A stretch of DNA of 64,000 nt from an uncultured Bacteroidales bacterium (GTDB lineage: Bacteria > Bacteroidota > Bacteroidia > Bacteroidales > VadinHA17), in NCBI GenBank assembly GCA_963750735.1, contig CAVVRY010000018.1, positions 10,751-74,750 of the forward strand, given 5' to 3'. Shown in pieces: positions 12,615-35,330 of this stretch. The notes beneath the pieces are model-generated. The model saw only the letters and a list, made by a program, of their open reading frames with translations. It searched no databases and was not told the DNA's origin. The position numbers and the translations under genes are program-made. How positions within the stretch are numbered: the first letter of the stretch is position 1; each line of letters opens with the position of its first letter.

Positions 12615-12659
12615 AGTTTGGCAAATCAAGATTTTAAAAAAATATATAAAGAATATAGT

Positions 12660-15461: not shown

Positions 15462-18400
15462 ATGAAAAAAATATTTGATTTTTTATTCTCAATGCAATGG
15501 ATGGCATTTCTCATTCTTATAATGATATTTTCCACTGCCACAGCAACTTTTATTGAAAATGATTTTGGACCAGCAGCTGCAAGAGCAGCAGTCTACAACG
15601 CAAGGTGGTTTGAAGTTTTACTTTTATTTATAATCATAAACCTGATTGGGAATATGATTGTTAATAAAGTATATAAAACAAAAAAATTGAGCATATTCAT
15701 ATTCCATTTTGCTTTTCTTTTCATTTTTTTAGGTTCTGCTATTACCCGGTACATAAGCTATGAAGGATCCATGCATATTCGGGAAAATGATTCATCTGAC
15801 CGTATTATTTCTTCACAATCATATCTTAGTATTGAAGCAGAAAATGAATCCGGGGATGTGCAATACCATGAAAAGACACAATTTATAGCCGGCAAAAAGA
15901 ATAAATTCAATAAAACCCTCAAAATTGGGAATGAATCATTGAAGCTTAAATTGACCAGGTATATCCCAAATGCTGAAAAATCATTGATTCCTGACCCTGT
16001 TGGTGAGCCCGTTGTTTCATTTGTAACATTAGGATCTGAGGGTAGACAGCCACATCTTCTTACACCTGGAGAGACAGAGCATATTGCTGACTTTCATGTG
16101 GGATTTAATAATGCTGCTGCCGATTTTAACATTGTTATTAAGGATGAAGGTTTATATTTTACATCAAAAAACGATGTTTCACTAATGGATATGGGCACAA
16201 ATTCACAGACTCCCCTGGCAGATGGAGAATTGCATCCTTTTGAGACAAAGAGATTATATACTACTAATAATACACAAATAGTACTATCTGACTTTGTAAA
16301 TAAAGGTAAAGTAGATTGGGTTGTTGGTCCAAACGACGGGGCATTTCGACCTGATGTTTTGCTTCTGGAAGCATCATTTAAATCAAAGACTGAAATTCTT
16401 CCCTGTTTTGGAAAGGCTGATAGAATTGGGACTCAACAGAGTTTTGACCTCGATGGAACAACCGTTACCCTGACCTATGGCCCCAGGTGGATTCAGCTTC
16501 CATTTGCTCTCTTCCTTAAAGATTTTCAGCTTGAAAGGTATCCCGGTTCAAACAGTCCGGCTTCCTATGCAAGTGAAGTTACTTTGATTGATAGGGAGAG
16601 TGGTATTGAAAAACCCTATCGGATATTTATGAATAATATATTGAATTATAAGGGCTACAGGTTTTTCCAGTCTTCATATGATACAGATGAGAAAGGAACC
16701 ATTTTATCAGTAAATCACGATGCGATGGGAACTTTTGTAACGTATATAGGTTACTTTTTAATGACCCTGGGTATGGTATTATCCATTTTTAACAAAAATA
16801 GCCGTTTCAGAAGCCTTGCAAGATCAGGGAATAATACCAGAGGAGTTGCGGCAACAGTTTCTACTCTGCTTGTACTTGCATTTACTACGCTTATGCCTTC
16901 CACTTTAAATGCTCAAACAGCATCAGGCACAAATGACGTCATAAGTTCCAGCCAGGCGAACGAATTGTCATCTATTCTGGTTCAGGACCAGGGAGGGCGT
17001 ATTAAGCCCCTTCAATCAATGGCATCTGATGTTATGAGGAAGGTAGTTAAAAGTGAATCGGTTAATGGTATGAACTCAATGCAGGTTGTTATGGGGATGT
17101 ATTTATTCCCGGAATCATGGCAACATGTCCCTATGATCAAGGTAACTAATGGAGAGATTCAGAAAATGCTGGGAGTTCGTGACAAATTTGTATCCTACGT
17201 TGACTTCTTTGATATGGCTGCAATGGGTCAGTACAAGCTATCGAAAATCGTGCAGGAAGCCTATCAGAAAAAGCCAGGTTTACGGACCAAACTTGACCAG
17301 GAAATCCTAAAGGTGGATGAAAGGGTTAATGTTTGTTATATGGTATACTCCGGAAGTATAATAAGGATATTTCCTGTTTTGAATGATCCAAATCATAAAT
17401 GGTATGGCCCGGCAGAAGCTGTAAGTGTAGTTCCAAAATCAGATTCCATTTTTGTAAGTGGAGTTCTCGCTTCTTACAAGAATTCCATCGCTCAGAAAGG
17501 CAATGAAGCAACAGCTTCGGAGATTATAAATGGCATAAAAAAATATCAACAAATTAATGCCGGTGAGTTGTATCCAGCCAAATCGAAAATCTCACTGGAA
17601 ATATTTTACAACCGGATTCATATTTTTGATAAGCTTACAAAATACTATGCGATCATTGGCTTTATCCTGTTGATTCTTCTTCTGATTTCTGTTCTGAATG
17701 AAAAAACAGGAATAAATAAAATTATTCGAATAGCCACCTTATTACTCTTATTGGGTTTTATTTTCCACACATTTGGTTTGGGTATTCGTTGGTATATTTC
17801 CGAACACGCTCCATGGAGTAATGGATATGAATCCATGATTTATATAGCATGGGCTGCTATGCTCTCGGGTTTGATATTCGTTCGAAAATCAACCTTTACT
17901 CTGGTTGCAGCCTCATTGCTTGCTGCTTTAACCCTTATGGTGGCACATATGAGCTGGATGAACCCGGAGATTACGAACCTGGTACCTGTTCTGAAGTCCT
18001 ATTGGTTGACTATACATGTATCAGTTATTACGGCCAGCTATGGATTCCTTGGAACAGGGATGGTCTTAGGACTGTTTAATCTGGTTCTGTATATAATGAA
18101 AACAGACAAGAATCATTTTAAGCTGGAGAAACAGATTAAAACACTTAGTGAAATCAATGAATTATCACTTATTCTTGGTGTCTACTTTTTATCTGTTGGT
18201 ACTTTCTTAGGAGGTGTTTGGGCCAATGAATCCTGGGGACGTTACTGGGGCTGGGACCCAAAGGAGACCTGGGCATTGATAACGGCACTGGTATATATTT
18301 TCATAACCCATATGAGGTTTGTACCGGGGCTAAAAGGAGATTTTGCTTTTAACCTTGCATCAGTTGTAGGATTCTTTTCCGTATTGATGACTTATTTTGG

Positions 18401-18560
18401 AGTGAACTATTACCTGGCTGGTCTTCATTCTTATGCTGCTGGCGATGCTGTACCCATTCCGAAGTTTGTTTATTTTACGGTCGCAAGCCTTGTTTTAATA
18501 ATTCTTTTTGCCTGGTTCAACGAAAAGAATTTTAGAAAAAAGATCCCTGCTGTTAAGTAA
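15462..18560 (+). CDS. ccsA: Fused System II cytochrome c synthetase CcsBA (ResB-CcsA, NrfI-like)
   Basis: N-terminal ATFIEND..YNARWFE and FHFAFLFIFLGSAITRY (ResB part); C-terminal HAPWSNGYE, LKSYWLTIHV and WWD motif WANESWGRYWGWDPKETW, GLHSYA. Confidence 0.93.
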   Translation: MKKIFDFLFSMQWMAFLILIMIFSTATATFIENDFGPAAARAAVYNARWFEVLLLFIIINLIGNMIVNKVYKTKKLSIFIFHFAFLFIFLGSAITRYISYEGSMHIRENDSSDRIISSQSYLSIEAENESGDVQYHEKTQFIAGKKNKFNKTLKIGNESLKLKLTRYIPNAEKSLIPDPVGEPVVSFVTLGSEGRQPHLLTPGETEHIADFHVGFNNAAADFNIVIKDEGLYFTSKNDVSLMDMGTNSQTPLADGELHPFETKRLYTTNNTQIVLSDFVNKGKVDWVVGPNDGAFRPDVLLLEASFKSKTEILPCFGKADRIGTQQSFDLDGTTVTLTYGPRWIQLPFALFLKDFQLERYPGSNSPASYASEVTLIDRESGIEKPYRIFMNNILNYKGYRFFQSSYDTDEKGTILSVNHDAMGTFVTYIGYFLMTLGMVLSIFNKNSRFRSLARSGNNTRGVAATVSTLLVLAFTTLMPSTLNAQTASGTNDVISSSQANELSSILVQDQGGRIKPLQSMASDVMRKVVKSESVNGMNSMQVVMGMYLFPESWQHVPMIKVTNGEIQKMLGVRDKFVSYVDFFDMAAMGQYKLSKIVQEAYQKKPGLRTKLDQEILKVDERVNVCYMVYSGSIIRIFPVLNDPNHKWYGPAEAVSVVPKSDSIFVSGVLASYKNSIAQKGNEATASEIINGIKKYQQINAGELYPAKSKISLEIFYNRIHIFDKLTKYYAIIGFILLILLLISVLNEKTGINKIIRIATLLLLLGFIFHTFGLGIRWYISEHAPWSNGYESMIYIAWAAMLSGLIFVRKSTFTLVAASLLAALTLMVAHMSWMNPEITNLVPVLKSYWLTIHVSVITASYGFLGTGMVLGLFNLVLYIMKTDKNHFKLEKQIKTLSEINELSLILGVYFLSVGTFLGGVWANESWGRYWGWDPKETWALITALVYIFITHMRFVPGLKGDFAFNLASVVGFFSVLMTYFGVNYYLAGLHSYAAGDAVPIPKFVYFTVASLVLIILFAWFNEKNFRKKIPAVK

Positions 18561-18580
18561 ACTGTAAATGAATCGAAAAT

Positions 18581-18616
18581 AAAAATCGGGAGGCTGAGAA
18601 CCAGTCCTCCCGGTTT
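18581..18616. terminator. Terminator between convergent ccsBA and multiheme operon
   Basis: CGGGAGGCTG-AGAAC-CAGTCCTCCCG hairpin flanked by A and T runs. Confidence 0.7.
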
Positions 18617-18635
18617 CATTTTTGTAATAAAATCT

Positions 18636-20411
18636 TTACCAACAACTTTGTCTACCTCCACAATGAGCATCCGTACCCAGATAAGAATAACTGAAGCTTC
18701 CACCTGTGGGATTGTTTACAATTGTGCCACCATCCACAAAGCTTCTGGGATCAAAATAAGTATTCCCATCCACATGCCATGATGTCCCATATGTTCCCTG
18801 GTAAACAGGAGAACCGCTATCTCCATAATCTCCATCATTCGCATTATGACACCAGAAACAGTTAACCTGAGTCCAACCGCTAGCTATTAAATCCTGATCA
18901 TTATCTTTATGAGGCGTTCTTCTATGACCACCATAGTTTGGAGGTTGAGGGTCTGCTGGGCCAGGAGTTGTAATTGTATAATCACCAGTCATATTGCCAA
19001 CACCGGAATGACAGGCATCGCAGGAAGAAATAGTTCCAACAGTTGAATTCCATGCCGGCGTTAAAGTATATATGGGTGAATCTGGAGGTCTTGCACCCCA
19101 TATTAAAACGCCGTCAGTTCCCCTGTAAGCGCTTTTACCATCACTATGACAATAGATATTGCCACAGGTTTTGTCGCCATTGTAAGACGGTGTATTGCTG
19201 TCTGCTCCATTCCTGTATACCAGGCCGGAGGGATCAAAAGCGACATTGGCTGCACCGCCACTTGGGTGTGAGCCTTCAAGATCACCACCTGATCCATACT
19301 GGTAATGGCAGGTGTTGCATTCGAATTGATATTTGGATGTATGAGCGTAATGACCCTCTGTAGTACCCCAGCCTGGAAAATTTGCAATATGGCAATCTTC
19401 ACATCCGGTTGGAGCAAAGCTGTCTTCATGAGGATGACAGCCAATACAATTGTCCCCTGCATGATGATTACCTCCGGTACCATCATTATTATGATAGTTT
19501 GTACTTGTATGACAAACCTCACATATTCCATCATAATTGGAATCTCCATCTGCACCTGAGTTGGAGCCTGTTTGTTCTGTAAATAGTACAGTTTTATCTC
19601 CACTGTTTGGAGTTGAAACAATATTTCTAATTAAATAAATGTTGGCCTTATTAGTATTGTGTGTTTGATGACAGGCTGAGCATCCCATGGACTCGTGCGC
19701 TGTATAGGTATGACAACTGGCACATAGAGCATCATTATTTGTTTGACGGAGAAGATAGCCGTCTGTGGTAGCTGAATAATGAACCTGGTGGCAACTTGAG
19801 CATTCAATATTGCCATCGGGTATTATCACAGATCCTGTAGGCGGTTCCTTATACGCAATATTTCCTGTAGGATAGGCCAGACCAATAGGGTGACTTCCTT
19901 TATTATTGATGTTGTCGTCTGCATATCGGCCAACATCCCGGGCTGAATGACAATCCTTACACATGGCATCACCTTCATTGGAAATCCGAAGATAGTTTGG
20001 AATTGTATTTCCAACATGCTGATCATGGCAGGTAGAACAGATTATATTTCCATCAGGCAGGCGTAGCAGCATTTCCGGATTAGTAGGTGTGTTTGTCTCG
20101 TAGCTTGCATTGATTGCCAATTCACCCCAGGCATGAGAAGTCCCTCTCGTTCCGGGTATTGCCTTGTCTGAGTTATCCAGGGGCAGACCGCTTGCTGTTC
20201 CGGTTGGATTGTGGCAACTGATACACAAATTGGCATTTCCGTCAACTGCAGTTAAGGCTCCTCCGGGAGCATTGTGGAATATATGACATGCACTACAGGT
20301 ATAAACAATATGTCCCTGTGCAAGACCTAAATTGTTAATAGCTGAGAATAAAGCAACTAGAAATATCCCTTTTATCAAGTATTGATTTAATTTATAGGAG
20401 ATATCTTTCAT
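18636..20411 (-). CDS. Secreted multiheme cytochrome c, about 14 hemes, with Geobacter-type CxxxxCH...CxxCH C-terminal domain
   Basis: Signal peptide GLA/Q; 13 CxxCH plus CGNIYCH followed by PAW..CDACH; OmcE-like pairs (CxxCHxxH..LR..LCxxCH) in the N-terminal half. Confidence 0.9.
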   Translation of the reverse strand: MKDISYKLNQYLIKGIFLVALFSAINNLGLAQGHIVYTCSACHIFHNAPGGALTAVDGNANLCISCHNPTGTASGLPLDNSDKAIPGTRGTSHAWGELAINASYETNTPTNPEMLLRLPDGNIICSTCHDQHVGNTIPNYLRISNEGDAMCKDCHSARDVGRYADDNINNKGSHPIGLAYPTGNIAYKEPPTGSVIIPDGNIECSSCHQVHYSATTDGYLLRQTNNDALCASCHTYTAHESMGCSACHQTHNTNKANIYLIRNIVSTPNSGDKTVLFTEQTGSNSGADGDSNYDGICEVCHTSTNYHNNDGTGGNHHAGDNCIGCHPHEDSFAPTGCEDCHIANFPGWGTTEGHYAHTSKYQFECNTCHYQYGSGGDLEGSHPSGGAANVAFDPSGLVYRNGADSNTPSYNGDKTCGNIYCHSDGKSAYRGTDGVLIWGARPPDSPIYTLTPAWNSTVGTISSCDACHSGVGNMTGDYTITTPGPADPQPPNYGGHRRTPHKDNDQDLIASGWTQVNCFWCHNANDGDYGDSGSPVYQGTYGTSWHVDGNTYFDPRSFVDGGTIVNNPTGGSFSYSYLGTDAHCGGRQSCW

Positions 20412-20432
20412 TTTAAAATCCAGTATAGTTGT

Positions 20433-22625
20433 TTATTTACTTATAATTAATTTTCCTGAACTGACCAGGTCTTCTGAAGCAACTCTTACCATATATATAC
20501 CTTTTGGAAGACCGCCCAAGTCAATTATTTCCTTGGCCTCGTTGGGATTAAGTTGCACCGAGTAAATTATCTGTCCCTGCAAATTATAAATCTCTATCTT
20601 CATATTGTTATGAACTGGGTTAATAAGCTCTATAGTCAATAGGCCACTTGTTGGGTTCGGATATAAGCTTATGATATCATCCAGCACAATAGATTCAACA
20701 GGCAACTGTAAAACAGTTATAGTATCCGAAAAGGCTACATCACCACAGTTTTCATTGTATGAGGTTAGAGTTACAATATAATCACCTGGACTTGAATATG
20801 TGTGAACCGGATTGGCTTCTGTGCTTGTTTTTGTATCGCCAAAATCCCATAGGTATGAATCAGAATTAAGAGAAGTATTTATGAAACTAATTTCCATTGC
20901 ATTATGATTGAAGTCGAATCCTGGTACGGGAGATTCCCTTTTAACAATATCAGGATAACCAACAGACTTTGTATTACTGCAGTTTTGATCACTTACTAAT
21001 TTAACCTCATATGTACCCTGATCGGAAACAGAAAGTGTATATGGGCTTTGATGAATATTTTCAACTGTCTTAGGGTTTGAGTCATCATTTGTATATGTAA
21101 TAGACCAGGGTGAAGAGCCTGTAAGATCAATGATCAGATCTGTGCTCTGATCCTCACAGATCAAAACTGTAGCATTTCCAATTGTGATAGTTGATGTAGG
21201 TAAAGAATTCATCGTAACCTCGGCTGTTCCGGTGTAAATGCTTCCGGAGCAACCACCACCTTCCAGAGCAACCACTTCGTAAAGTCCTGCTTCTGAAACC
21301 TTAAGCAGGTAGGGATTATTTGTTGTAGTTTCCGTTTTTGGATCAGATCCATTCTTAGTATAGGTAAAGGTCCAGGGAGGTAGTCCTGTAAAACTTATTG
21401 CTATATCAGTTGATTCTCCGTCGCATATTGCTACCTCCCCATTTGAAATATTGGAAGTAGGAGGATCATTATTTACTTCAATTTTTGTTTTTCCTGTGAA
21501 ACAGGTGCCTGCAGAGTTGGCATCATTGAGAGCTGATACTTCATAGGTCCCAGGTTCAGAAACCGTTAAAACATATCGATTCTCTATTATGTTATTAACC
21601 TCTACCGGGTTTAACCCGTCCACCGTATAGATGAATGTCCAGGGCGCTGTTCCGGTGAATTCAATTTCAATATTCGTGCTTTCTCCCTGGCAAATGATAG
21701 TATTCAGGCTATTCATTTTTGCTGTTGGTAAAGCACTGTTAATGCCATACACATCAAATGCTGAATTATTCAATGAACTAATTAGTAGCTGATTATGGGA
21801 ATTTGAAACAATATCGAGAGGTACATTCAATTGGCCTTCTGTACTTCCAAACTCACCAAACCGGGTAATATACGATCCATTCTGATCGAATATGCTTATT
21901 TGCGCCTGAAATGGATCAGTAACAAATATATTTCCACAATTGCCTGTGGTAATACCCTGGATTCTGTAAAACTCACCTTCTCCATTTCCATGTTTTCCAA
22001 AGCTGCCAATTAATGTTCCATCAAGATTGAATATCCATACCTTAACTTCAGGATTAAATCCGGTGCCCAATCCCCCATGTTCTGCAACCAGTAAAGTATT
22101 ATTATTCGGGTTGTATGCTATTCCGGTTGGGAAAACTAAAATTCCTTCACCAATTACACGTATTACATTTGCTGAAAGATCAAGAACAATTACTTTTTTT
22201 AACTCACTATCTGCCACGTACAAAAGGCCGTCAGCATCAAATGCCATTGAATTTGGGAATAGTGTTCCTGAATAAAATTCGGTTAAGTTCCCATCTGGCT
22301 CAAATCTATAAATGTGGCCCGTTTCATCAGATCCGATGAACAGTTGATTGTTTCTGTTAACAGCAAGAGAAAGAGGTGAGATTTCCGGATATTGGGTAGC
22401 TAGTAAATTCCCGGAAGGATCAAATTTCAATATACGTTTTTCATTTACATCTGTCAGATAAATATTATCGAAATGGTCAACAGCCATTCTTACAGGAGCA
22501 TTTATTCCATTTTCAATACGGGATATATGAACAATATCCTCAGGAGCGACCTGAGAATATATGATTTTAATGGATGCAAGCACTATGATCCAAAGAAATA
22601 GATTTTTCTTTAAAAAACTTTTCAA
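20433..22625 (-). CDS. NHL-repeat beta-propeller, 3 Ig-like repeats, PKD domain and T9SS type A C-terminal domain
   Basis: NHL blades (FPNSMAFDADGLLYVAD, LVFPTGIAY, GQLNVPLDI); three repeats of ICxGESTxIxIxFTGxxPWTFxYT; PKD SYLWDFGD..NPVHTYSSPGDYIVTL; CTD LYPNPTSG..IEIYNLQGQ..LPKGIYMVRV..KLIISK. Confidence 0.88.
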   Translation of the reverse strand: MKSFLKKNLFLWIIVLASIKIIYSQVAPEDIVHISRIENGINAPVRMAVDHFDNIYLTDVNEKRILKFDPSGNLLATQYPEISPLSLAVNRNNQLFIGSDETGHIYRFEPDGNLTEFYSGTLFPNSMAFDADGLLYVADSELKKVIVLDLSANVIRVIGEGILVFPTGIAYNPNNNTLLVAEHGGLGTGFNPEVKVWIFNLDGTLIGSFGKHGNGEGEFYRIQGITTGNCGNIFVTDPFQAQISIFDQNGSYITRFGEFGSTEGQLNVPLDIVSNSHNQLLISSLNNSAFDVYGINSALPTAKMNSLNTIICQGESTNIEIEFTGTAPWTFIYTVDGLNPVEVNNIIENRYVLTVSEPGTYEVSALNDANSAGTCFTGKTKIEVNNDPPTSNISNGEVAICDGESTDIAISFTGLPPWTFTYTKNGSDPKTETTTNNPYLLKVSEAGLYEVVALEGGGCSGSIYTGTAEVTMNSLPTSTITIGNATVLICEDQSTDLIIDLTGSSPWSITYTNDDSNPKTVENIHQSPYTLSVSDQGTYEVKLVSDQNCSNTKSVGYPDIVKRESPVPGFDFNHNAMEISFINTSLNSDSYLWDFGDTKTSTEANPVHTYSSPGDYIVTLTSYNENCGDVAFSDTITVLQLPVESIVLDDIISLYPNPTSGLLTIELINPVHNNMKIEIYNLQGQIIYSVQLNPNEAKEIIDLGGLPKGIYMVRVASEDLVSSGKLIISK

Positions 22626-22782
22626 TGAATGTCTGATTTAGTTTTGGTCTCTATACAAATTTACACATTTTCTTGATTTATACTTAGAGAGCAAGAAATC
22701 ATATACATAAGACTTAATTAGTATAAATTAAAATAATGGTTTATGTTGACTCTGAATTTATATTTTCTCCTACCAGTTTCCC

Positions 22783-24465
22783 CTAGTAATTTTCAGGATT
22801 GTGTTCTTTTCCATGGCAGGTTAAGAAGCAGCGGCCCCTAAAATTTCCCTGATCTTCAAAATAAAGCCGCCCCTGGCTGTCTGCACTTACAATACTTAGA
22901 TCAAAATTTATCAGGTGAGAATTGTTTGAACTGTTTCCCTGAGTGTTACTGATTCCATGTGGATCATGACAAACATTGCAGGGTGTATTTTCTTCTCTAA
23001 TATGCATGTTGTGATCCTTGAACGACTGATTGTTCAAAATTGAATTACGATTGTGGCAAGAGTAGCAAAGTTCATAACTCAATGAAGACTCGATAGTATT
23101 ATCTGCTTTATCATACCTATATTTTAATATTGCAGGATAGATTGATCCATGCGGTCCAGCCGGTGAGTCAGAACCATCGCTTGCGTGGCAATCGGAACAA
23201 TAGATTTGACTCGCTTCTGTTAAGGGTGAAATAAGGCTGGGAACATTTGGATTTATACCTGTGCTTACCACCGGATGAAAGGAAGGATTGCTTGTGTCAA
23301 ATTCTAGTCGAACATTGTTTTGTTCTAATTGCCGGGAAGTATTTCCTGCGGGTTTTAATGGGCTGTCTGCATGACAACGGAAACATATTTCATATTCATA
23401 TTGGGCTGGGAATATGGGTATTCCTGAACGGTTTATTCCTTTCACTCCATCAATGAATCCATTCACATTGGGTGCTACTGCTGAAAGATTCCGAACAGCA
23501 TGTGGATTGTGACAGTCTTCGCATTCGACATGTAAATTAAGAGAAGTAAAATCCTCCATTGGATCGTGCTGCAAATTGTATGCATAAACATTATGCGAGT
23601 ATGTTTTTACCAGCTGCGACTCAATATTTGTTTCTGCCACATTTCCATTGTGACAATACAGACAATTCTCTTCCTCAGCCAGATAATTCATCAGCCGTGG
23701 TTTGCCCCCGGCAGTATGAGGATTGTGACAATTTTCACAGGCATTTTCGGAGACATTATCAAAATTGGTATGCGGCCATGGATTTGTTCCTGAATCATTC
23801 CAGTTAGCGGTTGAGGTATTGTGACTGGAAGTGCTCCAATAGTTCCTGTTGTGGCAATAAAAACAAAGATCAGAGAACCTGTTGGTAACTACTAAAAAGT
23901 CATCAAGTAATTCAGAATGTGGATCATGGCAGGAGGTACACTGGACTTTCTCGTTTTCAAGGCTTACCGGATCAAGGATTGTTTCAGGGTCTTTTAGTTG
24001 TCCATCCATACTTGCAATTGAAGCATTATAAACAAATGAAATAGGATGATCATCTGATAAATCGGTTGAAAGGTTGCTTCTGCCTTGAGGCATGCGGGTG
24101 ATACCTCGTCCAAAACCAATGTGGGTCGATCTACTCCGAATATTTCCCAGAGCAGTGGTACCATCATGACAGGAAAGACAAAGAATTGAACTACCATCAG
24201 GTTGACCAGGAATTGCATCAATCGTCGAACTATTGTATAAAGTATAAGTTCTACCCTGGTCATTCCTATTCCATAAGGGTCCCTTGGGGCCCCGCCTGCT
24301 GTGAGAAGTGTGACAAAAAATACAGGTTTGAGATTCAGATGAAGCCTTTATATTTCCAATGCCCTGTGCAGATAAATTGTGTTTACTATTACGAAGAATT
24401 TGTGTGTGAGAGTCAATGGGTATGCAAAACAAATACATTACAAAAATGATTCGGAAATGCTTCAT
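22783..24465 (-). CDS. Dodecaheme cytochrome c with N-terminal OmcE-like domain
   Basis: 11 CxxCH plus terminal CFLTCH; N-terminus SKHNLS..CIFCHTSH..PLWNR..YTLYNS..LCLSCHDG..LSDDHPISF..CTSCHDPH parallels the 35331-35927 protein. Confidence 0.9.
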   Translation of the reverse strand: MKHFRIIFVMYLFCIPIDSHTQILRNSKHNLSAQGIGNIKASSESQTCIFCHTSHSRRGPKGPLWNRNDQGRTYTLYNSSTIDAIPGQPDGSSILCLSCHDGTTALGNIRSRSTHIGFGRGITRMPQGRSNLSTDLSDDHPISFVYNASIASMDGQLKDPETILDPVSLENEKVQCTSCHDPHSELLDDFLVVTNRFSDLCFYCHNRNYWSTSSHNTSTANWNDSGTNPWPHTNFDNVSENACENCHNPHTAGGKPRLMNYLAEEENCLYCHNGNVAETNIESQLVKTYSHNVYAYNLQHDPMEDFTSLNLHVECEDCHNPHAVRNLSAVAPNVNGFIDGVKGINRSGIPIFPAQYEYEICFRCHADSPLKPAGNTSRQLEQNNVRLEFDTSNPSFHPVVSTGINPNVPSLISPLTEASQIYCSDCHASDGSDSPAGPHGSIYPAILKYRYDKADNTIESSLSYELCYSCHNRNSILNNQSFKDHNMHIREENTPCNVCHDPHGISNTQGNSSNNSHLINFDLSIVSADSQGRLYFEDQGNFRGRCFLTCHGKEHNPENY

Positions 24466-24467
24466 TC

Positions 24468-25547
24468 TTACTGTTTGTTTACTAATTGAAATATTTGAAT
24501 TCTAGAGTTGTAGGTATCAGCAACATAAATATAATCATTTTCATCAATAAAAATCCCACCCGGCATCCAGAATTGTTCCTTTCCGTGTCCCTGGGAGCCA
24601 AAATAATGTAAAAAGTTACCTTCCCTGTCATAAATTTGGACCACATGATACAGGGCATCTGCTACATAAATATGTCCGTATGAATCGGTTGCAACACCCT
24701 TGGGTCGGGCGAAATACCCACTGGCATCACCAATTTCCCCAAACACAGATATAAATTCTCCATTTTTATCGAAAATCTGAACCCTGAAATTCATTGAGTC
24801 GACAATATATACATTACCAGAAATGTCTATCCAAATAAAGGTTGGATAATTAAATTCTCCTGGACCACTACCCCTTTTACCAATCTTCCTTATCACTTCA
24901 CCCTTTTGATTTAACAATGCTATACGATGGGAATGGGTTTCTACCACCCATATCTCTTTATTTGCAGCAGACCATGCTATTCCGGTTGGTTGGTCCAGTT
25001 TTAGGGAATCATTTAGTTTCTTTAGATTTTTTCCCTCTTTTGAAAGAACAAAAATTTGATTTAACCGGGAATCAGTAAATAGGAGCTGTTCTCCCGGGAT
25101 AGCACAGATACCAGCCAAAGAAGGATATATTTTGTTTTCTTTTCTCAATGCCAATGGAACTTCACTGGTCCCTTCAGAGTTTCTTATTATCAATCCGGTA
25201 CCCTGATCTAAAATCCAGAAGTTGTTGGGATCTGTTCCAAAAATGGAAAATGGCTTACTTATTTCTACTTTCTTTTTTCCTAGAATTATCCCGGCCATTT
25301 TTTCCTTAAATGCCCTATTTTGTTTGTTGTCTTTTGAAGGAAATTCCCCTATCCATTGAACAGAATACAATTTTGCTTCTTGGCTAGTTAGGGCATTCAT
25401 TTGTCCTTTGGTTACAAAGAATGGCAACAAAAAGAGAACAAGCAGAAAAATGGCAAATGCTGTACCATGCAATTCGCTGGAATACTGAAAGTTAATAGTG
25501 TGTTTTAAAATTTGCATTTGATTCATTACAAAAGAGAGATCATGCAA
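24468..25547 (-). CDS. NHL-repeat six-bladed beta-propeller protein
   Basis: Repeats GSGPGEFNYPTFI..GNVYIVDSMNFRVQIFD, GYFARPKGVATDSYGHIYVAD, QFWMPGGIFID..IYVADTYNSRIQIF. The true start is probably downstream of 25547. Confidence 0.9.
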   Translation of the reverse strand: MHDLSFVMNQMQILKHTINFQYSSELHGTAFAIFLLVLFLLPFFVTKGQMNALTSQEAKLYSVQWIGEFPSKDNKQNRAFKEKMAGIILGKKKVEISKPFSIFGTDPNNFWILDQGTGLIIRNSEGTSEVPLALRKENKIYPSLAGICAIPGEQLLFTDSRLNQIFVLSKEGKNLKKLNDSLKLDQPTGIAWSAANKEIWVVETHSHRIALLNQKGEVIRKIGKRGSGPGEFNYPTFIWIDISGNVYIVDSMNFRVQIFDKNGEFISVFGEIGDASGYFARPKGVATDSYGHIYVADALYHVVQIYDREGNFLHYFGSQGHGKEQFWMPGGIFIDENDYIYVADTYNSRIQIFQLVNKQ

Positions 25548-25792
25548 GTTAAAAAATCAACATTCTGGTTTTGGAATTGTCTTGAAAAGCCTATTATTAC
25601 TACAATTTAAAATTACAATTAATTTCATGAACAGAAAGCCATAAACATATCGATAAGGATGACATTTCTTATTTATAATGGTTTTAATTAAGGTTGTGTA
25701 CCCTATTTTTGGTATAATAATTGAACAGGAATTAATAATAATATTTATTTTTATCAACCTGAAAAACAATTTTAAACTTAAAATCTAAAATT

Positions 25793-26323
25793 ATGTTTAC
25801 TAAAAAATCTCTATTAATTCTAAGTCTGGCTTTATTCATGGGCAGTACATTATTTGCTCAGGACTATAAGTACATTGGTGCTGCAAAATGCAAAATGTGC
25901 CATAATAAAGAGGAAAAAGGCGAGCAATATAATAAATGGCTGGCTGCTCCTCATGCCAATGCAATGAAATCCTTAAGCAATGAAGAATCGATGGCATATG
26001 CAAAAGAAAATGGCATTGCTGATCCAACCAAAGATCCTGGATGCCTTTCCTGCCATGCTACTGCCGGAGCTATAGATAAGAGCCAAAATGGTGGTGTAAA
26101 AGTGACTGAGGGAGTATCATGTGAATCATGTCATGGCCCTGGAAGTGTTTATAAGAACATGTCCATAATGAAAAGTCGTGAGAAAAGCATGGACGCAGGT
26201 TTAATACTTCCTACTAAAGAAGTATGTGTTACCTGTCACAATGAGAAAAATCCTTTCCATAAGCCATTTAACTTCGATGAGGCGGTTAAGAAAATTGCTC
26301 ATCCAGACCCAACAGCAGAATAA
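25793..26323 (+). CDS. Periplasmic tetraheme cytochrome c, c554-like family
   Basis: Signal LFA/Q; YIGAAKCKMCH, CLSCH, GVSCESCHGPGS, CVTCH. Confidence 0.88.
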   Translation: MFTKKSLLILSLALFMGSTLFAQDYKYIGAAKCKMCHNKEEKGEQYNKWLAAPHANAMKSLSNEESMAYAKENGIADPTKDPGCLSCHATAGAIDKSQNGGVKVTEGVSCESCHGPGSVYKNMSIMKSREKSMDAGLILPTKEVCVTCHNEKNPFHKPFNFDEAVKKIAHPDPTAE

Positions 26324-27557: not shown

Positions 27558-27933
27558 ATGACTTTTTAATTTACATAACCGAAAGAATTTAAAAGGATTT
27601 CGAAGGTATTTACGAAATAATTCTACTTCGGCTGAATCTGTTTTATGGACAATATTGAAAAACAAACAGGTTGCAGGGTTGAAGTTTCGGAGACAACATA
27701 GTATTGGAAATTATATAGTTGATTTTTTTTGCCCAAAACTAAATCTTGTCATTGAATTAGATGGTGGATATCATGCTTCATATCAGGCGATTATACGAGA
27801 TGAAAAGAGGGATAAATATCTGGAAAGTTATGGAATGACCATACTTAGATTTGAGAATAAAGTTGTATTTGAAAAACCTGAAGAGATTCTAAGACAGATA
27901 ATGGATGTGAAAAACAATTTAATTCCAAATTGA
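27558..27933 (+). CDS. DUF559 (Vsr-like, PD-(D/E)XK) endonuclease domain protein
   Basis: RRYLRNNSTSAESVLWTILKNKQVAGLKFRRQHSIGNYIVDFFC..IELDGGYH..DEKRDKYL..LRFEN. The ATG at 27558 is out of frame by one extra T in a T-run (ACTTTTTAAT). Confidence 0.85.
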
Positions 27934-27963
27934 CCTGACTCGTCCTGAAAAAGGTTTACAGGT

Positions 27964-28829
27964 TTATTGATTTAAAGTTACTGTTTTTTTGTAATAATTT
28001 TTCCACCGTTTTTTAAGTTTTCCTGACGCTTGATGAGCAAGCTCAGGAGTCAACATATCACAACTTAAGTGTGGTCTTTTTCTATTATACTTTTCTATTG
28101 ATTTTTCTAATTGTAAAGTTGTTAGGTTTTGATACTGATTTAGATACTCATCCTTTAATATTCCATTTACTCTTTCAGCAATAGCGTTTTCCAGGGGATC
28201 GCCTTTTTCTGTCATGCTTATATGAATGTTGTTTTCTTGAAGCACCTTTATATACTCTTTGCTGCAGTATTGTATTCCCCTGCCAGGAGGGATGATTAGT
28301 CATGTAATAGGTTGACGGTTGTTTTTAAGAGCGTCCTGCAATGAGTTTACAGCATGCATGCTATCGAGGGTATTAGCCAGCTTACAACCTATGATCTTCT
28401 TAGAATAAGCATCTGTAATCAGGAATAGGTATATGAACTCATTACCGGATCTTTTATAGCTTATATCGCTAACCCAGATCTGGTTAGGAATCCGGGTCAT
28501 ATCCTTGAAAAGGAAAGGTATTTTCTATATACATGGTTGTGAAAAATTGTTGTAGTATATCTTCTTTTTCTTTTGGTAACTTTTAGATTATTAGGTGCCA
28601 TCAGGTCAAACAAAGTATCCCTGCCCATTTTTATGTTGGACCTCTGCAGTTCAGGTTTGATTAAATGATATATCTTTCTTGTACCCATTCTGGGATGATC
28701 CTTTTTGATACTTAACACCATTTGATAAACGATATGGTCTTCAAAAAGCATCTTTTGAGTTGCTTTTAAATACTTATAAAATGCTTGTCTGGATAAACCA
28801 AACAGTCTGCATATCCTTTCCAGACCCAC
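27964..28829 (-). pseudogene. IS3-family OrfB DDE transposase, split into three frames
   Basis: CRLFGLSRQAFYK, PNQIWVSDISY..LITDAYSKKIIG and ISMTEKGDPLENAIAERVNGILKDEY lie in different frames. Confidence 0.82.
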
Positions 28830-28846
28830 TGTAGGATATACTTCTT

Positions 28847-29200
28847 TTATTTCTTGGACTGTTTGGTGTCTGGCTTTTTTCTTATTGGAACTTTTAATTG
28901 CTCCTCAGCAATATCAATCATCTTAGAGTAACCAAAAGAACGAATCTGTTCGTCCTCAAGCTTTCTCTCAAGCTCTTTGATTCGCTTAATCAGCTCTTTT
29001 TTATCAGATTTACTGTAATCCATAAGGCTTTGTAAATATGGGTCCGACCCTTCAGATTTACGAATCCATTTTAAAATAGTAGTAGAACCTCCAATTCCAT
29101 ATTTTCTCCTGGCTGCTTCCTTTGAGATCTGGCCAGACTGAACTTGGAATACGATCTCTCTTTTTAAAGACTCACTGTAATAATAATTTAATCCTGACAT
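28847..29200 (-). CDS. IS3-family OrfA (HTH transposase subunit)
   Basis: YSESLKREIV..SKEAARRKYGIGGSTTILKWIRK helix-turn-helix plus coiled coil. Confidence 0.85.
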   Translation of the reverse strand: MSGLNYYYSESLKREIVFQVQSGQISKEAARRKYGIGGSTTILKWIRKSEGSDPYLQSLMDYSKSDKKELIKRIKELERKLEDEQIRSFGYSKMIDIAEEQLKVPIRKKPDTKQSKK

Positions 29201-31136: not shown

Positions 31137-31147
31137 AAATAGTTAGT

Positions 31148-33118: not shown

Positions 33119-33164
33119 TTATTACTCAATAGTAATTCGTGGTCATTCAAATGTCAATTTTGCC

Positions 33165-33405
33165 GTTTAATCGTTTAACTGTTTTTTGATAATTGATTAT
33201 CTGTTTATTGGCTCATTGTTTACTGATAACTGATTATTTGTTTCTTTTACCCTGATTACTGTTTATTGATAATTGTTTATTGGTAACTGTTTACTGATAA
33301 CTGATAATTGATTATTTGTTTTCTTTATTAGTTTGGTTTTTGGTTCCTGTTTTTATCTGATTACTGATTACTGATTATTGATTATTGTTTAGTGATATCT
33401 GTTTA
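33165..33405. repeat. Degenerate 7-nt tandem repeat tract (TGATTAC/TGATAAC/TGTTTAC/TGATTAT)
   Basis: For example CTGATTACTGATTACTGATTATTGATTATTGTTTAGTGATATCTGTTTA and ACTGATAACTGATAATTGATTAT; intergenic. Confidence 0.75.
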
Positions 33406-33439
33406 GGACTTTCGATTTACGTTTCACACCTTATGTCAT

Positions 33440-33997
33440 TTAATTAAACATTAACCTATCCTTTCCTCCATGGGGATTGTGGCATTCGATGCAATTCGTA
33501 TCTTCTATTCCTTCATGAATTTTTGTATTAAAACCTTCCCCCGGAACATGACAATGTAAACAGAGTTCCTGCCCACTGCGTTTCAGTAAATTTTCTTTTG
33601 CATAATGGGGCTGATGACAGGCCGTGCAATAGCCTCCGGCAACCGGGCCATGAACAGTTTTATAGCGCTCTTCGAAATTTTCATGGCACTGGTAACAGAG
33701 TTTGGGCTGAGGGAGAATGTATCGGCCCATCGTATTTTGGTCATGGCAGCTTGAACAATCTTTTTCCAGGTATGGAATGTGATAAATAGTCTTTGGTGCG
33801 TTTGGAATTTCAGTTTCCTGGACTATTATATCAGGACTGTTTAAAGAATCAATACCGATGGTCTGCTCCAGTAGCTCATCACCAGGGACTCCGTCAAAAA
33901 AGAAATTCATGGCCTTTTTCCCTGCTTCAGGGGAACAACCACCTAATAGGATAAGAATGAAAATGATAATTGAGCTTACTGACCAAGCATTATTCAT
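33440..33997 (-). CDS. Pentaheme cytochrome c lipoprotein (ExtC-like)
   Basis: Lipobox LGGC; FFFDGVP; CSSCH, CYQCH, CTACH, CLHCH, CIECH; directly upstream of the barrel gene. Confidence 0.88.
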   Translation of the reverse strand: MNNAWSVSSIIIFILILLGGCSPEAGKKAMNFFFDGVPGDELLEQTIGIDSLNSPDIIVQETEIPNAPKTIYHIPYLEKDCSSCHDQNTMGRYILPQPKLCYQCHENFEERYKTVHGPVAGGYCTACHQPHYAKENLLKRSGQELCLHCHVPGEGFNTKIHEGIEDTNCIECHNPHGGKDRLMFN

Positions 33998-35060
33998 TTA
34001 TAGATGTTTTTTCTTCAACAAATCCGTATACCCCTATTTTATTGGGTCCAAATTGATTTGTCACATAGATTAAGAATTTCAGGTTAAAATCCTTATAAAC
34101 ATAGGGTTTGAAATAATCAAGGTTATCATAGCTGATGGCAACTCCGGCTGGAAGACTCATATTTCCATGTCCTCCAAAAAACATCAATAATGCACCACTT
34201 TTATTAAAGATTTGAACATTTTCAAAAGCTGCATCTACTGCATACAGGTTTTCATTTTTGTCAAGAGCAATGCCTTTTGGGCGTGTAAATTGGCCAAATC
34301 CCTTTCCATAATTCCCAGTTATACCCCTAAAACTTCCATCTGGTGAAAAAGATTTAATATTAAATCCACCAAAATCTGTAACATAAATATTTTCATTTGA
34401 AGAAGAAATATTCACAGGCTGATTTAGGTATCCCTTCGACTCTGGATTTAAGTTTGGGAAAGAATCAATCAGGTTATAATCCAGTAAATCGTATACAAAT
34501 ATTTTATGTCCACTAACATTGGCCACATATATTTTTTCATCCTTCACCCATACACCTGTTGGTTTAAAATTCCCAGTTGCCCCCAGGGCAGTGACATACT
34601 TTAACATATGGTCGAATACTACAACCTGTTTTCGTTCCCCATCAGCAACAAAGAGATAATGAAATTCATCAACAAAACAATTTAGTGGAAGTTTTAGTTG
34701 GCCTTTGCCAGTAGGTATAAAGTATTCGAAGGTTCCTTTTTTCAAATTAATAATTTCCAATCCGCCAATTCCCGGGTCGCAGATATATATACTATTTTTT
34801 GTTACCTGAATTCCATATGGCCTGTTTATGGGTCTCGGTTCTTCTTCACCAAGGAAAAACTTTTTAAATCCGGATTGGGGTCTGGCAATGTTTTCTGAGC
34901 TGTTAATATAAGTTAAAAATTGTATTCTTGCAGAATCCGGAGGGGAGGGAAATAGTATAAGTTCTTCAGCAGTTGGAGATTTGATTATTTTCTTTGTGCA
35001 GGCATCAAAAGTAAATGCCATGATCAAAAGAATGAATAATGTAGAAAGGCTTCGATTCAT
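33990..35060 (-). CDS. NHL-repeat beta-propeller lipoprotein
   Basis: Lipobox FDAC; FPSPPDSARIQFL; NHL blades GQFTRPKGIALDKNENLYAVDAAFENVQIF; overlaps the pentaheme gene by 8 nt. Confidence 0.87.
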   Translation of the reverse strand: MNRSLSTLFILLIMAFTFDACTKKIIKSPTAEELILFPSPPDSARIQFLTYINSSENIARPQSGFKKFFLGEEEPRPINRPYGIQVTKNSIYICDPGIGGLEIINLKKGTFEYFIPTGKGQLKLPLNCFVDEFHYLFVADGERKQVVVFDHMLKYVTALGATGNFKPTGVWVKDEKIYVANVSGHKIFVYDLLDYNLIDSFPNLNPESKGYLNQPVNISSSNENIYVTDFGGFNIKSFSPDGSFRGITGNYGKGFGQFTRPKGIALDKNENLYAVDAAFENVQIFNKSGALLMFFGGHGNMSLPAGVAISYDNLDYFKPYVYKDFNLKFLIYVTNQFGPNKIGVYGFVEEKTSINE

Positions 35061-35280
35061 TTAGTAAAAAGTTGTTGTAGGCCCTATAAAATGGCAGGGT
35101 GAAAGCCTACATTTAGATACACTGTTTTTCTACATACTTTATTGTGCGAAATCGTATGCCGGGAAATAACAGAAATATAGTCTTAATGTAAGCAGAACCA
35201 TTTCCGAAAATATACATTTTTTCTTTTAGAAATTTTTTAAATAAGAGATCGACAAAATCTTTATCTTTTTTTTGAAATGG

Positions 35281-35304
35281 AAAAGGGCAGCCGAAACCAC
35301 CCTT
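35281..35304 (-). terminator. Terminator hairpin after the omcE-like gene
   Basis: Minus strand AAGGGTGGT-TTCG-GCTGCCCTT-TT, a UUCG-loop hairpin with G-U pairs. Confidence 0.65.
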
Positions 35305-35330
35305 AAATATTTATTATGCAAAACTGACCT

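What the first reader, a model, noticed from the sequence alone, without database searches (positions are those of the whole stretch)
20433..22625. T9SS-secreted NHL/Ig/PKD protein inside a multiheme operon: a Bacteroidota-specific add-on to EET
Seen: NHL propeller, three ~87-aa Ig-like repeats, PKD and a type A T9SS CTD, encoded 21 nt upstream of the 14-heme gene, whose product has a Sec signal but no CTD. Established: T9SS CTD proteins are exported to the surface of Bacteroidota; Geobacter has no T9SS. Inference: the protein could be a surface stalk, scaffold or piggy-back carrier that displays or nucleates CTD-less cytochromes outside the cell. I know of no described link between T9SS and cytochrome nanowire export.
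Basis: partly seen in the sequence, partly recalled or inferred. Interest (0 to 1): 0.72.

Follow-up and report, generated by a model that had tools for sequence, protein, structure and literature searches.

The report
T9SS-tagged propeller partner of a multiheme cytochrome
This gene encodes a secreted, stalked beta-propeller protein that looks like the dedicated binding partner of the large multiheme cytochrome encoded right after it, and it may show how Bacteroidota put such cytochromes on their surface.

Summary
ORF 20433-22625 (-) encodes 730 aa: signal peptide, six-bladed NHL propeller, three 87-aa Ig-like repeats, a PKD domain and a type A T9SS C-terminal domain (CTD; TIGR04183 55.6 bits, cut-off 23). 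It lies 21 nt upstream of a 14-heme cytochrome that has no CTD. The genome encodes SprA, PorU, PorV and GldM.

The pairing is not chance. In 44 of 44 related genome loci with enough downstream sequence, a 12-25-heme cytochrome follows on the same strand. None of the 46 such cytochromes examined has room for a CTD. Starting from the cytochrome, 47 of 56 metagenome loci with upstream flank carry an NHL partner. In 11 of those 47 the propeller is fused to the cytochrome; named relatives of the fused form are Planctomycetota. A complex model places the cytochrome's N-terminal heme region on the propeller face (ipSAE 0.69, best control 0.00).

Best reading: a T9SS-exported, stalked, non-heme subunit that binds, tethers and possibly carries the cytochrome. 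Export and location are untested. NHL partners of multiheme cytochromes are known. In six full-text searches I found no paper linking T9SS to them. The "nanowire" label fits another gene in the window (OmcE homolog, 35331-35927), not the 14-heme protein. Verdict: a new variant of a known kind.

The parts
20433..22625 (-). Gene for the 730-aa NHL / 3x Ig-like / PKD / T9SS type A CTD protein (the finding).
22551..22625 (-). Signal peptide, residues 1-25 (MKSFLKKNLFLWIIVLASIKIIYSQ).
   Evidence: Sequence; helix 2-18 in the model. Judged by eye.
21735..22550 (-). Six-bladed NHL beta-propeller, residues about 26-297. This is the predicted docking face for the cytochrome.
20946..21728 (-). Three 87-aa Ig-like (POM152-type) repeats, residues about 300-560; the presumed stalk.
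20706..20933 (-). PKD domain, residues about 565-640.
20442..20666 (-). T9SS type A C-terminal sorting domain, residues 654-728.
18636..20411 (-). 14-heme c-type cytochrome (591 aa; 13 CxxCH + 1 CxxxxCH). It has a signal peptide, no CTD, and the invariant C-terminus H-C-x5-C-W. This is the predicted partner.
15462..18560 (+). Fused ResB-CcsA (CcsBA) cytochrome c synthase, convergent with the pair. A CcsBA-like ORF lies in 17 of 55 related loci.
22783..24465 (-). 12-heme cytochrome (11 CxxCH + 1 CxxxCH) upstream in the same gene string.
24468..25547 (-). Second NHL propeller (359 aa, no CTD), directly upstream of the 12-heme gene. This is a second propeller-cytochrome pair.
33990..35060 (-). 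Third NHL propeller (356 aa, lipoprotein-like N-terminus). It overlaps the start of the 5-heme gene 33440-33997. This is a third pair, inside the OmcE-like cluster.

Best explanation
The gene encodes the non-heme partner subunit of the multiheme cytochrome encoded 21 nt downstream.

Proposed mechanism:
1. Both proteins enter the periplasm by Sec.
2. The cytochrome receives its hemes there. A CcsBA synthase gene sits beside the pair.
3. The top face of the NHL propeller binds the N-terminal two-heme region of the cytochrome.
4. The CTD sends the propeller protein through the T9SS (SprA translocon; PorV/PorU handling). The cytochrome has no such signal of its own.
5. The Ig-like and PKD domains form a stalk that holds the propeller, and with it the cytochrome, outside the outer membrane.

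Shown here: the domain architecture; the T9SS genes; the conserved gene pair; the absence of a CTD on the cytochromes; the propeller-cytochrome fusions.

Modelled only: the interface.

Inferred: export by the T9SS, surface location, and whether the cytochrome travels with its partner or is caught outside.
For: 1. T9SS cargo marks. TIGR04183 scores 55.6 bits against a cut-off of 23. It is the best of 55 CTD matches in the genome. SprA scores 2785 bits, PorU 1321, PorV 504 and GldM 392 in the same genome.

2. Conserved pair, seen from the propeller side. There are 55 genome loci with an NHL+Ig ORF; 48 have the CTD in the same ORF. In 41 of the 55, an ORF with 10 or more CxxCH starts -79 to +393 nt after it on the same strand. 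In 3 more it lies within 5 kb behind a split ORF. Eleven loci are cut by a contig end. None has enough flank and no cytochrome, so 44 of 44 testable loci have the pair. Control: 0 of 15 loci that matched only the Ig repeats hold any ORF with 4 or more CxxCH.

3. No CTD on the cytochromes. In 46 downstream cytochromes, only 21-113 residues follow the last CxxCH. Of the 14 scanned with Pfam, 0 have Por_Secre_tail or CHU_C; 9 have PKD_6 repeats, 3 have Gly_rich_2 and 1 has Ig_7 at the N-terminus. All 22 N-termini inspected look like ordinary signal peptides, with no lipobox. In the own genome, 0 of 16 ORFs with 4 or more CxxCH carry a CTD.

4. Conserved pair, seen from the cytochrome side. Of 74 metagenome loci, 18 have no upstream flank. 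Of the other 56:
- 24 have an adjacent CTD protein.
- 3 have one 2.5-5 kb upstream.
- 5 have an adjacent short NHL protein. Of the three short NHL proteins scanned (L097 and L111 from this group, and L057, a Calditrichaeota genome locus), two reach the Por_Secre_tail cut-off of 27 (30.9 and 28.1 bits). L097 falls short at 25.1 bits.
- 4 have an NHL protein further upstream.
- 11 have the propeller fused to the cytochrome.
- 9 have none.

5. The fused form is a large family: 143 proteins at E<=1e-3. Almost all named proteins in the fused, heme-bearing part of the list are Planctomycetota or Phycisphaerae; one is labelled only 'bacterium'.

6. The target propeller aligns end to end with the fused one (residues 29-311 against 2-294, E 5e-25). 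It shares R46, H183, R221, D271 and N286 with most of the 12 fused proteins checked. The window's two other NHL paralogs lack most of these residues but keep R221.

7. Complex model. ipSAE is 0.69 (runs 0.67, 0.72, 0.69); the best of 3 controls is 0.00. The runs agree in at least 88% of contacts and the partner's pLDDT is at least 89. In the tool's calibration this mark was reached by 116 of 157 solved complexes and 2 of 215 mismatched pairs. Those counts hold only roughly here, because my own alignments were used. The interface is cytochrome residues 38-82 on all six blades. Sequence searches found no solved complex of these two families.

8. SprA is present in 5 of 5 other genomes that carry a CTD-bearing partner.

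9. Stalks co-vary. The number of Ig repeats tracks the length of the cytochrome's heme-free N-terminal extension (Spearman 0.67, n=41). With 4 or more Ig repeats, 26 of 26 have an extension; with 3 or fewer, 3 of 15 do. Related loci are not independent, so this is weak evidence.
Against: - There are no localisation or expression data. No RNA run holds the stretch.
- The complex was modelled without hemes, and the cytochrome chain is only moderately confident (pLDDT 66-69).
- The fused Planctomycetota forms have no recognisable CTD, so the propeller-cytochrome unit works without a T9SS. The propeller's primary job is therefore something other than export.
- The island holds candidate outer-membrane barrels: a DUF5777 protein at 12618-13520 and a 656-aa unknown at 31148-33118. 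These could export cytochromes on their own.
- A stalk of three Ig domains plus a PKD domain would hold the hemes away from the membrane. The electron path to them is unexplained.
- 9 of 56 cytochrome-side loci with flank show no NHL partner.
- L040 has an NHL protein with 7 Ig repeats and no recognised CTD.
- The module is rare: the 14-heme protein was found in 0 of 400 sampled genomes of the phylum at E<=1e-10.
Confidence: 0.55

Rival explanations
1. It is a T9SS-secreted adhesin or binder of minerals, humics or cells. It works alongside the cytochrome, bringing the cell to its electron acceptor, without forming a complex with it.
For: Ig-like and PKD repeats plus a CTD are a usual surface-adhesin layout. 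An NHL protein of Geobacter metallireducens was attributed to cell adhesion in a passage of bioRxiv 10.1101/2022.05.06.490989. The nearest solved NHL domains are binding modules, not enzymes: TRIM71, Thin, Brat and the PknD sensor.
Against: The propeller is fused to this cytochrome family in 11 loci and in a family of 143 proteins. The complex model passes with controls at 0.00. The residues conserved between split and fused forms lie at the predicted interface.
Confidence: 0.12
2. The propeller is a catalytic or cofactor-binding redox subunit, and the cytochrome is its electron wire. Together they form a secreted two-subunit oxidoreductase rather than a scaffolded conduit.
For: Invariant polar residues (R46, D59, D139, E182, H183, R221, Q223, D271, N286) cluster on the top face, around the central channel. 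From general knowledge, not tested here: six-bladed propellers of related families include metal-dependent enzymes. Weak Pfam matches to SGL and Vgb_lyase exist.
Against: The Vgb_lyase match is below its cut-off (27.8 against 50), and the SGL match is a short stretch. The closest solved relatives by sequence are non-enzymatic NHL domains. The same face is the predicted protein interface. No cofactor motif was found.
Confidence: 0.12
3. It is an assembly chaperone. It caps the OmcE-like N-terminal module of the cytochrome in the periplasm to prevent premature stacking or aggregation. It is then removed through the T9SS, while the cytochrome stays behind or leaves by a porin-type route.
For: The predicted contact is the cytochrome's N-terminal region. 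With a family profile, that region weakly resembles OmcE (7tfs, E 7e-7). Propeller lipoproteins are constant members of OmcE nanowire clusters (passages of PMC13712944). Candidate barrels lie in the island.
Against: A chaperone has no evident need for a stalk of 1-7 Ig domains whose length tracks the cytochrome's own stalk. The permanent fusion in Planctomycetota argues for a stable complex rather than a transient one.
Confidence: 0.08
4. The adjacency has no functional meaning.
For: None beyond the lack of experiments.
Against: 44 of 44 testable loci have the pair, against 0 of 15 control loci. Only 16 of 8420 ORFs in the own genome have 4 or more CxxCH. Fusions exist.
Confidence: 0.02

Closest known systems
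NHL beta-propeller proteins encoded beside multiheme cytochromes in extracellular-electron-transfer clusters: UetH/UetI of Ca. Tenderia, the DFE_448-451/461-465 region of Desulfovibrio ferrophilus IS5, Dethiobacter clusters, and the propeller lipoproteins of OmcE clusters in Desulfuromonadia.
   Same: A six-bladed NHL propeller gene sits next to multiheme cytochrome genes. It is proposed to mediate protein-protein contacts that stabilise cytochrome complexes (passages read). The window itself holds three such pairs.
   Different: Those proteins are described as lipoproteins, or as periplasmic or cytoplasmic by prediction. None of the passages I read describes an Ig/PKD stalk or a T9SS sorting domain. 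Orthology to them was not tested here.
Fused NHL-multiheme cytochromes of Planctomycetota (Phycisphaerae); unnamed family, found.
   Same: The propeller subfamily is the same: collinear alignment at E 5e-25, with shared R46, H183, R221, D271 and N286. The cytochrome family is related: 29-40% identity over the first ~340 residues.
   Different: They are one polypeptide with no Ig stalk and no CTD. In the window the two halves are separate genes, and the propeller half carries the stalk and the T9SS signal.
Ordinary T9SS type A cargo of Bacteroidota.
   Same: N-terminal signal peptide, folded passenger domains, and a C-terminal TIGR04183 domain, in a genome with SprA, PorU, PorV and GldM. T9SS moves folded proteins (passage of PMC9251779).
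   Different: Known cargo carries its own CTD. Here the CTD sits on a partner of a CTD-less cofactor protein. A search combining T9SS with piggyback/hitchhiking/co-secretion terms listed no such case among the 15 shown of 182 hits.
Tat 'hitchhiker' export (for example E. coli PaoABC).
   Same: A signal-less, cofactor-loaded subunit crosses a membrane bound to a signal-bearing partner (abstract of PMC4273604, in the listing). This is the nearest mechanistic analogy for the piggy-back reading.
   Different: It is a different machine (Tat) and a different membrane (inner), with no sequence relation. It is an analogy only.
OmcE cytochrome nanowire subunit (PDB 7tfs, 9yuq).
   Same: The window's ORF 35331-35927 is a full-length homolog (E 1.3e-25 and 1.9e-23). 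The 14-heme family profile weakly matches part of OmcE (E 7e-7).
   Different: The 14-heme protein alone does not match 7tfs at E<=1. It is three times longer and has 14 hemes. Nothing shows that it polymerises.

Membership tests
T9SS type A cargo | C-terminal type A sorting domain (TIGR04183 / PF18962) above the curated cut-off | tested here: met
   55.6 bits against 23; 60.9 bits against 27; residues 654-728, ending 2 residues before the stop.
T9SS type A cargo | N-terminal Sec signal peptide | tested here: met
   A basic N-terminus followed by a hydrophobic stretch; helix 2-18 with low confidence at 19-23 in the model. Judged by eye; no predictor was run.
T9SS type A cargo | The genome encodes the T9SS core | tested here: met
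   SprA 2785 bits, PorU 1321, PorV 504, GldM 392; all above their cut-offs.
T9SS type A cargo | Secretion depends on the T9SS, with the CTD removed | not testable with these tools
   Needs mutants and proteomics.
NHL-repeat six-bladed beta-propeller | NHL repeats that fold into six four-stranded blades | tested here: met
   PF01436 40.1 bits against 20. 24 strands at residues 31-295 with pLDDT about 90. PDB NHL domains match at E 2e-28 to 1e-10.
Propeller partner of multiheme cytochromes in electron-transfer clusters | Encoded next to a multiheme cytochrome, conserved across genomes | tested here: met
   44 of 44 testable loci; 47 of 56 from the cytochrome side.
Propeller partner of multiheme cytochromes in electron-transfer clusters | Physical binding to the cytochrome | tested here: inconclusive
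   The model supports it (0.69 against 0.00) and fusions exist. There is no experiment.
Propeller lipoprotein of OmcE-type nanowire clusters | Lipoprotein signal (lipobox cysteine) | tested here: not met
   No cysteine in the N-terminal 25 residues. The window's other propeller, 33990-35060, does have a lipobox-like FDAC.
OmcE-type nanowire subunit (asked of the 14-heme partner) | Full-length homology to the tetraheme OmcE subunit | tested here: not met
   No match to 7tfs with the single sequence at E<=1. The family profile gives a partial match at E 7e-7. ORF 35331-35927 meets the feature instead.

The most novel reading that the evidence does not exclude
The CTD acts in trans. The propeller protein binds the folded, heme-loaded cytochrome in the periplasm and carries it through the SprA translocon. 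If so, this pair would be the first piggy-back cargo of a T9SS and a dedicated export route for giant extracellular cytochromes in Bacteroidota and their relatives. The matched Ig and PKD_6 stalks would then form a two-stranded tether that sets how far from the cell the hemes sit.
Probability: 0.3. Interest if true: 0.85.

Novelty: new variant of a known kind. Interest (0 to 1): 0.68.

Why it matters
How large multiheme cytochromes and cytochrome filaments cross the outer membrane is still called an open question (discussion passage of PMC13712944). Here a conserved gene pair links such a cytochrome to a well-understood secretion machine.

The pair occurs in cultured bacteria: Aestuariivivens species, Lutimonas vermicola and Carboxylicivirga marina. 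The question can therefore be tested with ordinary genetics and heme staining.

If the link holds, three things follow:
- It would show what the widespread NHL propellers of electron-transfer clusters are for.
- It would add a cofactor-protein complex to the cargo range of the T9SS.
- It would give a marker (NHL + CTD gene followed by a CTD-less multiheme gene) for finding extracellular electron transfer in Bacteroidota from sediments.

Tried and rejected
- Phylum sample: the 14-heme protein was found in 0 of 400 other genomes at E<=1e-10. Presence/absence statistics from that sample were therefore impossible, and I used pattern scans of the collections instead.
- RNA evidence: no RNA holder is listed for 18636-25547.
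- Terminator scan of 18400-26000: 6 terminator-like sites against 5.4 expected, all inside genes and none in the 21-nt gap. This is not informative either way.
- A CTD hidden on the cytochromes: rejected. The tails are short, and heme motifs run almost to the C-terminus in two of the cytochrome classes.
- Surface-lipoprotein export of the cytochromes: rejected. No lipobox in the 22 N-termini inspected.
- 'The pair stands alone in Flavobacteriaceae': I thought so, because within 10 kb there is only CcsBA plus the pair. One search corrected this: further multiheme genes lie roughly 7-30 kb away on the same contigs.
- 'NHL-only' partners: my own CTD profile missed them. Pfam showed that two of the three checked reach the Por_Secre_tail cut-off (L111 30.9 bits, L057 28.1). 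L097 is just under it at 25.1 bits, with FlgD_ig at 37.5.
- Earlier notes of this scan: none for this genome.
- The paper on the OmcS assembly machinery (Shen et al. 2025, PMC11845295) is not held. I saw only its citation in PMC13712944. It may describe propeller proteins of OmcS clusters that bear on the novelty claim.
- Supplements of the papers read were not opened.
Full report
**What is there**

The minus-strand ORF 20433-22625 encodes 730 residues from a TTG start. Homologs called independently in other assemblies have the same length and cover all of it.

Pfam and NCBIfam give these domains:
- an NHL propeller;
- three Ig-like POM152-type repeats (121 bits);
- a PKD domain;
- a type A T9SS sorting domain (TIGR04183 55.6 bits, cut-off 23; Por_Secre_tail 60.9 bits).

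This CTD is the best-scoring of 55 TIGR04183 matches in the genome. The three repeats are 87 aa long and 40-44% identical to each other. An AlphaFold2 model (mean pLDDT 86) shows an N-terminal helix, 24 strands forming six blades, three beta-sandwiches, a PKD domain and the CTD.

The gene ends 21 nt before the ATG of a 591-aa cytochrome with 13 CxxCH and one CxxxxCH, a signal-peptide-like N-terminus and no CTD.

**Setting**

The gene lies in an island of about 33 kb (roughly 10.1-43.3 kb of the window) flanked by Crp-type regulators. The island holds 10 of the genome's 16 ORFs with four or more CxxCH. None of those 16 carries a CTD, and the genome has only one NHL-Ig-PKD-CTD gene.

The genome encodes the T9SS core: SprA, PorU, PorV and GldM, all far above their cut-offs.

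The island contains three propeller-then-cytochrome gene pairs:
- 24468-25547, then the 12-heme gene;
- 33990-35060 (lipoprotein-like), then a 5-heme gene;
- the finding, then the 14-heme gene.

The same three pairs recur in related loci. The third pair sits in a cluster with a clear OmcE homolog (35331-35927; E 1e-25 to PDB 7tfs), a 656-aa unknown protein and a 21-heme cytochrome. This resembles the minimal OmcE nanowire cluster described for Desulfuromonadia (passages of PMC13712944).

**Is the pairing more than chance?**

*From the propeller side.* A scan of one genome per species found 73 loci. Of these, 55 hold an NHL+Ig ORF, and 48 of those have the CTD in the same ORF:
- In 41, an ORF with ten or more CxxCH starts within -79 to +393 nt on the same strand.
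- In 3 (L005, L015, L021), it follows within 5 kb behind what look like frameshifted pieces.
- 11 are cut by a contig end.
- None has enough flank but no cytochrome.

The 15 loci that matched only through the Ig repeats have no multiheme ORF at all.

The carriers, by record title, are Bacteroidales, Marinilabiliales, Cytophagales and Flavobacteriales. They include cultured Aestuariivivens, Lutimonas and Carboxylicivirga, and a few MAGs labelled Chlorobiota. One Calditrichaeota MAG (L057) carries a short NHL protein that reaches the Por_Secre_tail cut-off but has no Ig repeats.

*From the cytochrome side.* A metagenome scan with an alignment of the 14-heme family gave 74 loci. Of these, 18 have no upstream sequence. 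Of the other 56:
- 24 have the CTD protein adjacent;
- 3 have it 2.5-5 kb upstream, behind another cytochrome;
- 5 have an adjacent short NHL protein;
- 4 have an NHL protein further upstream;
- 11 have the propeller fused to the cytochrome in one reading frame;
- 9 show none.

I scanned three short NHL proteins with Pfam: L097 and L111 from the adjacent group, and L057 from the genome scan. L111 and L057 reach the Por_Secre_tail cut-off of 27 (30.9 and 28.1 bits). L097 scores 25.1, just under it.

**The cytochromes never carry the sorting signal**

In 46 downstream cytochromes, only 21-113 residues follow the last CxxCH, and their C-termini are family-specific heme-domain ends. Of 14 scanned with Pfam, none has a type A or type B CTD.

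Most of the larger ones have heme-free N-terminal extensions: PKD_6 repeats in 9 of 14, Gly_rich_2 in 3 and Ig_7 in 1. From general knowledge, this is the domain vocabulary of secreted Bacteroidota proteins. The 22 N-termini I looked at are ordinary signal peptides, not lipoproteins.

So the only recognisable outer-membrane export signal in the pair is on the propeller protein.

**Evidence that the two proteins bind**

1. *Gene fusion.* The fused form is a family of 143 proteins at E<=1e-3. Almost all named proteins in the fused, heme-bearing part of the list are Planctomycetota or Phycisphaerae; one is labelled only 'bacterium'.
2. *Same propeller subfamily.* The target propeller aligns collinearly with the fused one (E 5e-25). 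It shares R46, H183, R221, D271 and N286 with most of the 12 fused proteins checked. The window's two other propellers lack most of these residues but keep R221.
3. *Complex model.* A model of the propeller (residues 24-297) with the cytochrome (33-591) scored ipSAE 0.69 in three runs; the best of three controls was 0.00. The runs agree in at least 88% of contacts, and the partner's pLDDT is at least 89. In the tool's calibration this mark was reached by 116 of 157 solved complexes and 2 of 215 mismatched pairs. Those counts hold only roughly here, because my own alignments were used.

In the model, cytochrome residues 38-82 (the first two heme motifs and a conserved loop) sit on the top face of the propeller and touch all six blades. 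That position is where a short linker would put them in the fused proteins. No solved complex of these families turned up by sequence, so the pass is unlikely to be from memory.

The model has no hemes, and the cytochrome chain is only moderately confident (pLDDT 66-69).

**Further hints**

- SprA is present in all 5 other carrier genomes tested, including the Chlorobiota-labelled and Calditrichaeota MAGs.
- A fused CcsBA synthase gene lies beside the pair in the window and in 17 of 55 loci.
- The number of Ig repeats in the propeller protein tracks the length of the cytochrome's own N-terminal stalk (Spearman 0.67, n=41). With 4 or more Ig repeats, 26 of 26 have an extension; with 3 or fewer, 3 of 15 do. 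Related loci are not independent, so this is suggestive only. It fits two stalks running side by side in one compartment.

**What is not shown**

- Nothing here shows where either protein ends up, or that the T9SS moves them.
- No RNA run holds the region.
- The fused Planctomycetota forms have no recognisable CTD, so the propeller's basic role is not export.
- The island has candidate barrels that could export cytochromes independently.
- In the Flavobacteriaceae isolates the pair is not isolated, as I first thought. Other multiheme genes lie roughly 7-30 kb away.
- A stalked cytochrome raises the unanswered question of how electrons reach it.

**Comparison with the literature**

NHL propellers beside multiheme cytochromes have been noted in:
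- Dethiobacter (PMC10376724, passages);
- Ca. Tenderia (bioRxiv 10.1101/2022.05.06.490989, passages);
- Desulfovibrio ferrophilus (PMC5815863, passages);
- OmcE clusters of Desulfuromonadia (PMC13712944, passages).

In each case they are proposed to be interaction or stabilising modules. Multiheme clusters in Bacteroidetes MAGs have also been reported (PMC6344600 and PMC8258643, passages).

Searches of the held library:
- 'type IX secretion' + 'multiheme': 0 papers.
- 'T9SS' + 'extracellular electron transfer': 1 paper, judged unrelated from its title and the start of its abstract.
- T9SS with piggyback/hitchhiking/co-secretion terms: none relevant among the 15 listed of 182.
- The CTD model names with cytochrome or heme: 5 papers. 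I opened only the Caldithrix paper, where the two topics are unconnected.

The Shen et al. 2025 paper on OmcS assembly is not held, and I opened no supplements. Either could weaken the novelty claim.

**Verdict**

The gene is one half of a conserved two-gene module. Its propeller is very probably the binding partner of the downstream cytochrome. Its stalk and CTD are additions found in T9SS-bearing lineages.

That it displays the cytochrome on the surface is the best reading (about 0.55). That it carries the cytochrome through the T9SS is the boldest reading still open (about 0.3). The 'nanowire' framing belongs to the neighbouring OmcE-like cluster, not to this pair.

Noticed in passing
window 29463-35927 (-): An OmcE-type cluster. 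It holds a 198-aa tetraheme with full-length homology to the OmcE nanowire subunits 7tfs (E 1.3e-25) and 9yuq (E 1.9e-23), a lipoprotein-like NHL propeller, a 5-heme cytochrome, a 656-aa protein with no family match (atlas lead: clusters from Bacteroidota and Planctomycetota, and a weak Porin_4 hint), and a 21-heme cytochrome (20 CxxCH + 1 CxxxCH). This looks like a Bacteroidota counterpart of the minimal OmcE cluster of Desulfuromonadia.
   Followed up: partly
window 24468-25547, 33990-35060 and 20433-22625; loci L001, L012, L013, L017, L018, L028, L030, L046, L048: Three distinct NHL propeller paralogs sit each directly upstream of their own cytochrome class (about 563 aa with 11 CxxCH; about 190 aa with 5; and the large one). 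The arrangement recurs across related loci. It suggests one dedicated propeller per cytochrome, at different depths of the envelope (membrane-anchored or periplasmic, lipoprotein, T9SS).
   Followed up: partly
loci L115-L118, L120-L122, L124, L126-L128; proteins P0121-P0227: A large family of single-chain NHL-propeller-multiheme cytochromes (15-30 CxxCH, about 1000-1800 aa). Almost all named members are Planctomycetota or Phycisphaerae. I found no description of this family in the papers I read.
   Followed up: partly
41 pairs (the window plus loci L001-L055): The Ig-repeat number of the CTD protein (1-6 in the 41 counted pairs) co-varies with the length of the heme-free PKD_6 / Gly_rich_2 N-terminal extension of the partner cytochrome (0 to about 1400 aa). 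Spearman 0.67, not corrected for relatedness.
   Followed up: partly
window 36608-39391 (-): A 927-aa protein with 19 CxxCH fused to a cytochrome b561-type membrane domain (Ni_hydr_CYTB), followed by a separate b561 gene (39764-40432) and a 7-heme gene (40422-41435). These are candidates for the quinol-oxidising entry point of the island.
   Followed up: no
window 27655-29200: Mobile-element debris in the middle of the cytochrome island: a DUF559 endonuclease-like ORF, a 93-aa integrase-core fragment (rve_3), and two small ORFs with no family match.
   Followed up: no
window 5964-7247 (+) and 46449-47901 (+): Two genes appear split by frame changes. An FAD_binding_4/BBE oxidase lies in three ORFs, and a pyridoxal-dependent decarboxylase in two. 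These are either pseudogenes or assembly errors.
   Followed up: no
window 22656-22663 (-): TAAATTTG lies 31 nt upstream of the TTG start, in the 157-nt gap after the 12-heme gene. It fits the TAnnTTTG -7 promoter box of Bacteroidota as I recall it. The motif is from memory and was not tested. If real, the propeller and 14-heme genes could have their own promoter.
   Followed up: no
window 18636-20411 (-); alignment A2: All 12 aligned members of the 14-heme family end in an invariant H-C-x5/6-C-W at or near the C-terminus, which is not a heme-binding motif. Its role is unknown; a disulfide loop is one possibility.
   Followed up: no
window 3065-5578 (+): A second T9SS CTD protein in the window (837 aa; Por_Secre_tail 34 bits) with no other recognisable domain, outside the cytochrome island.
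   Followed up: no
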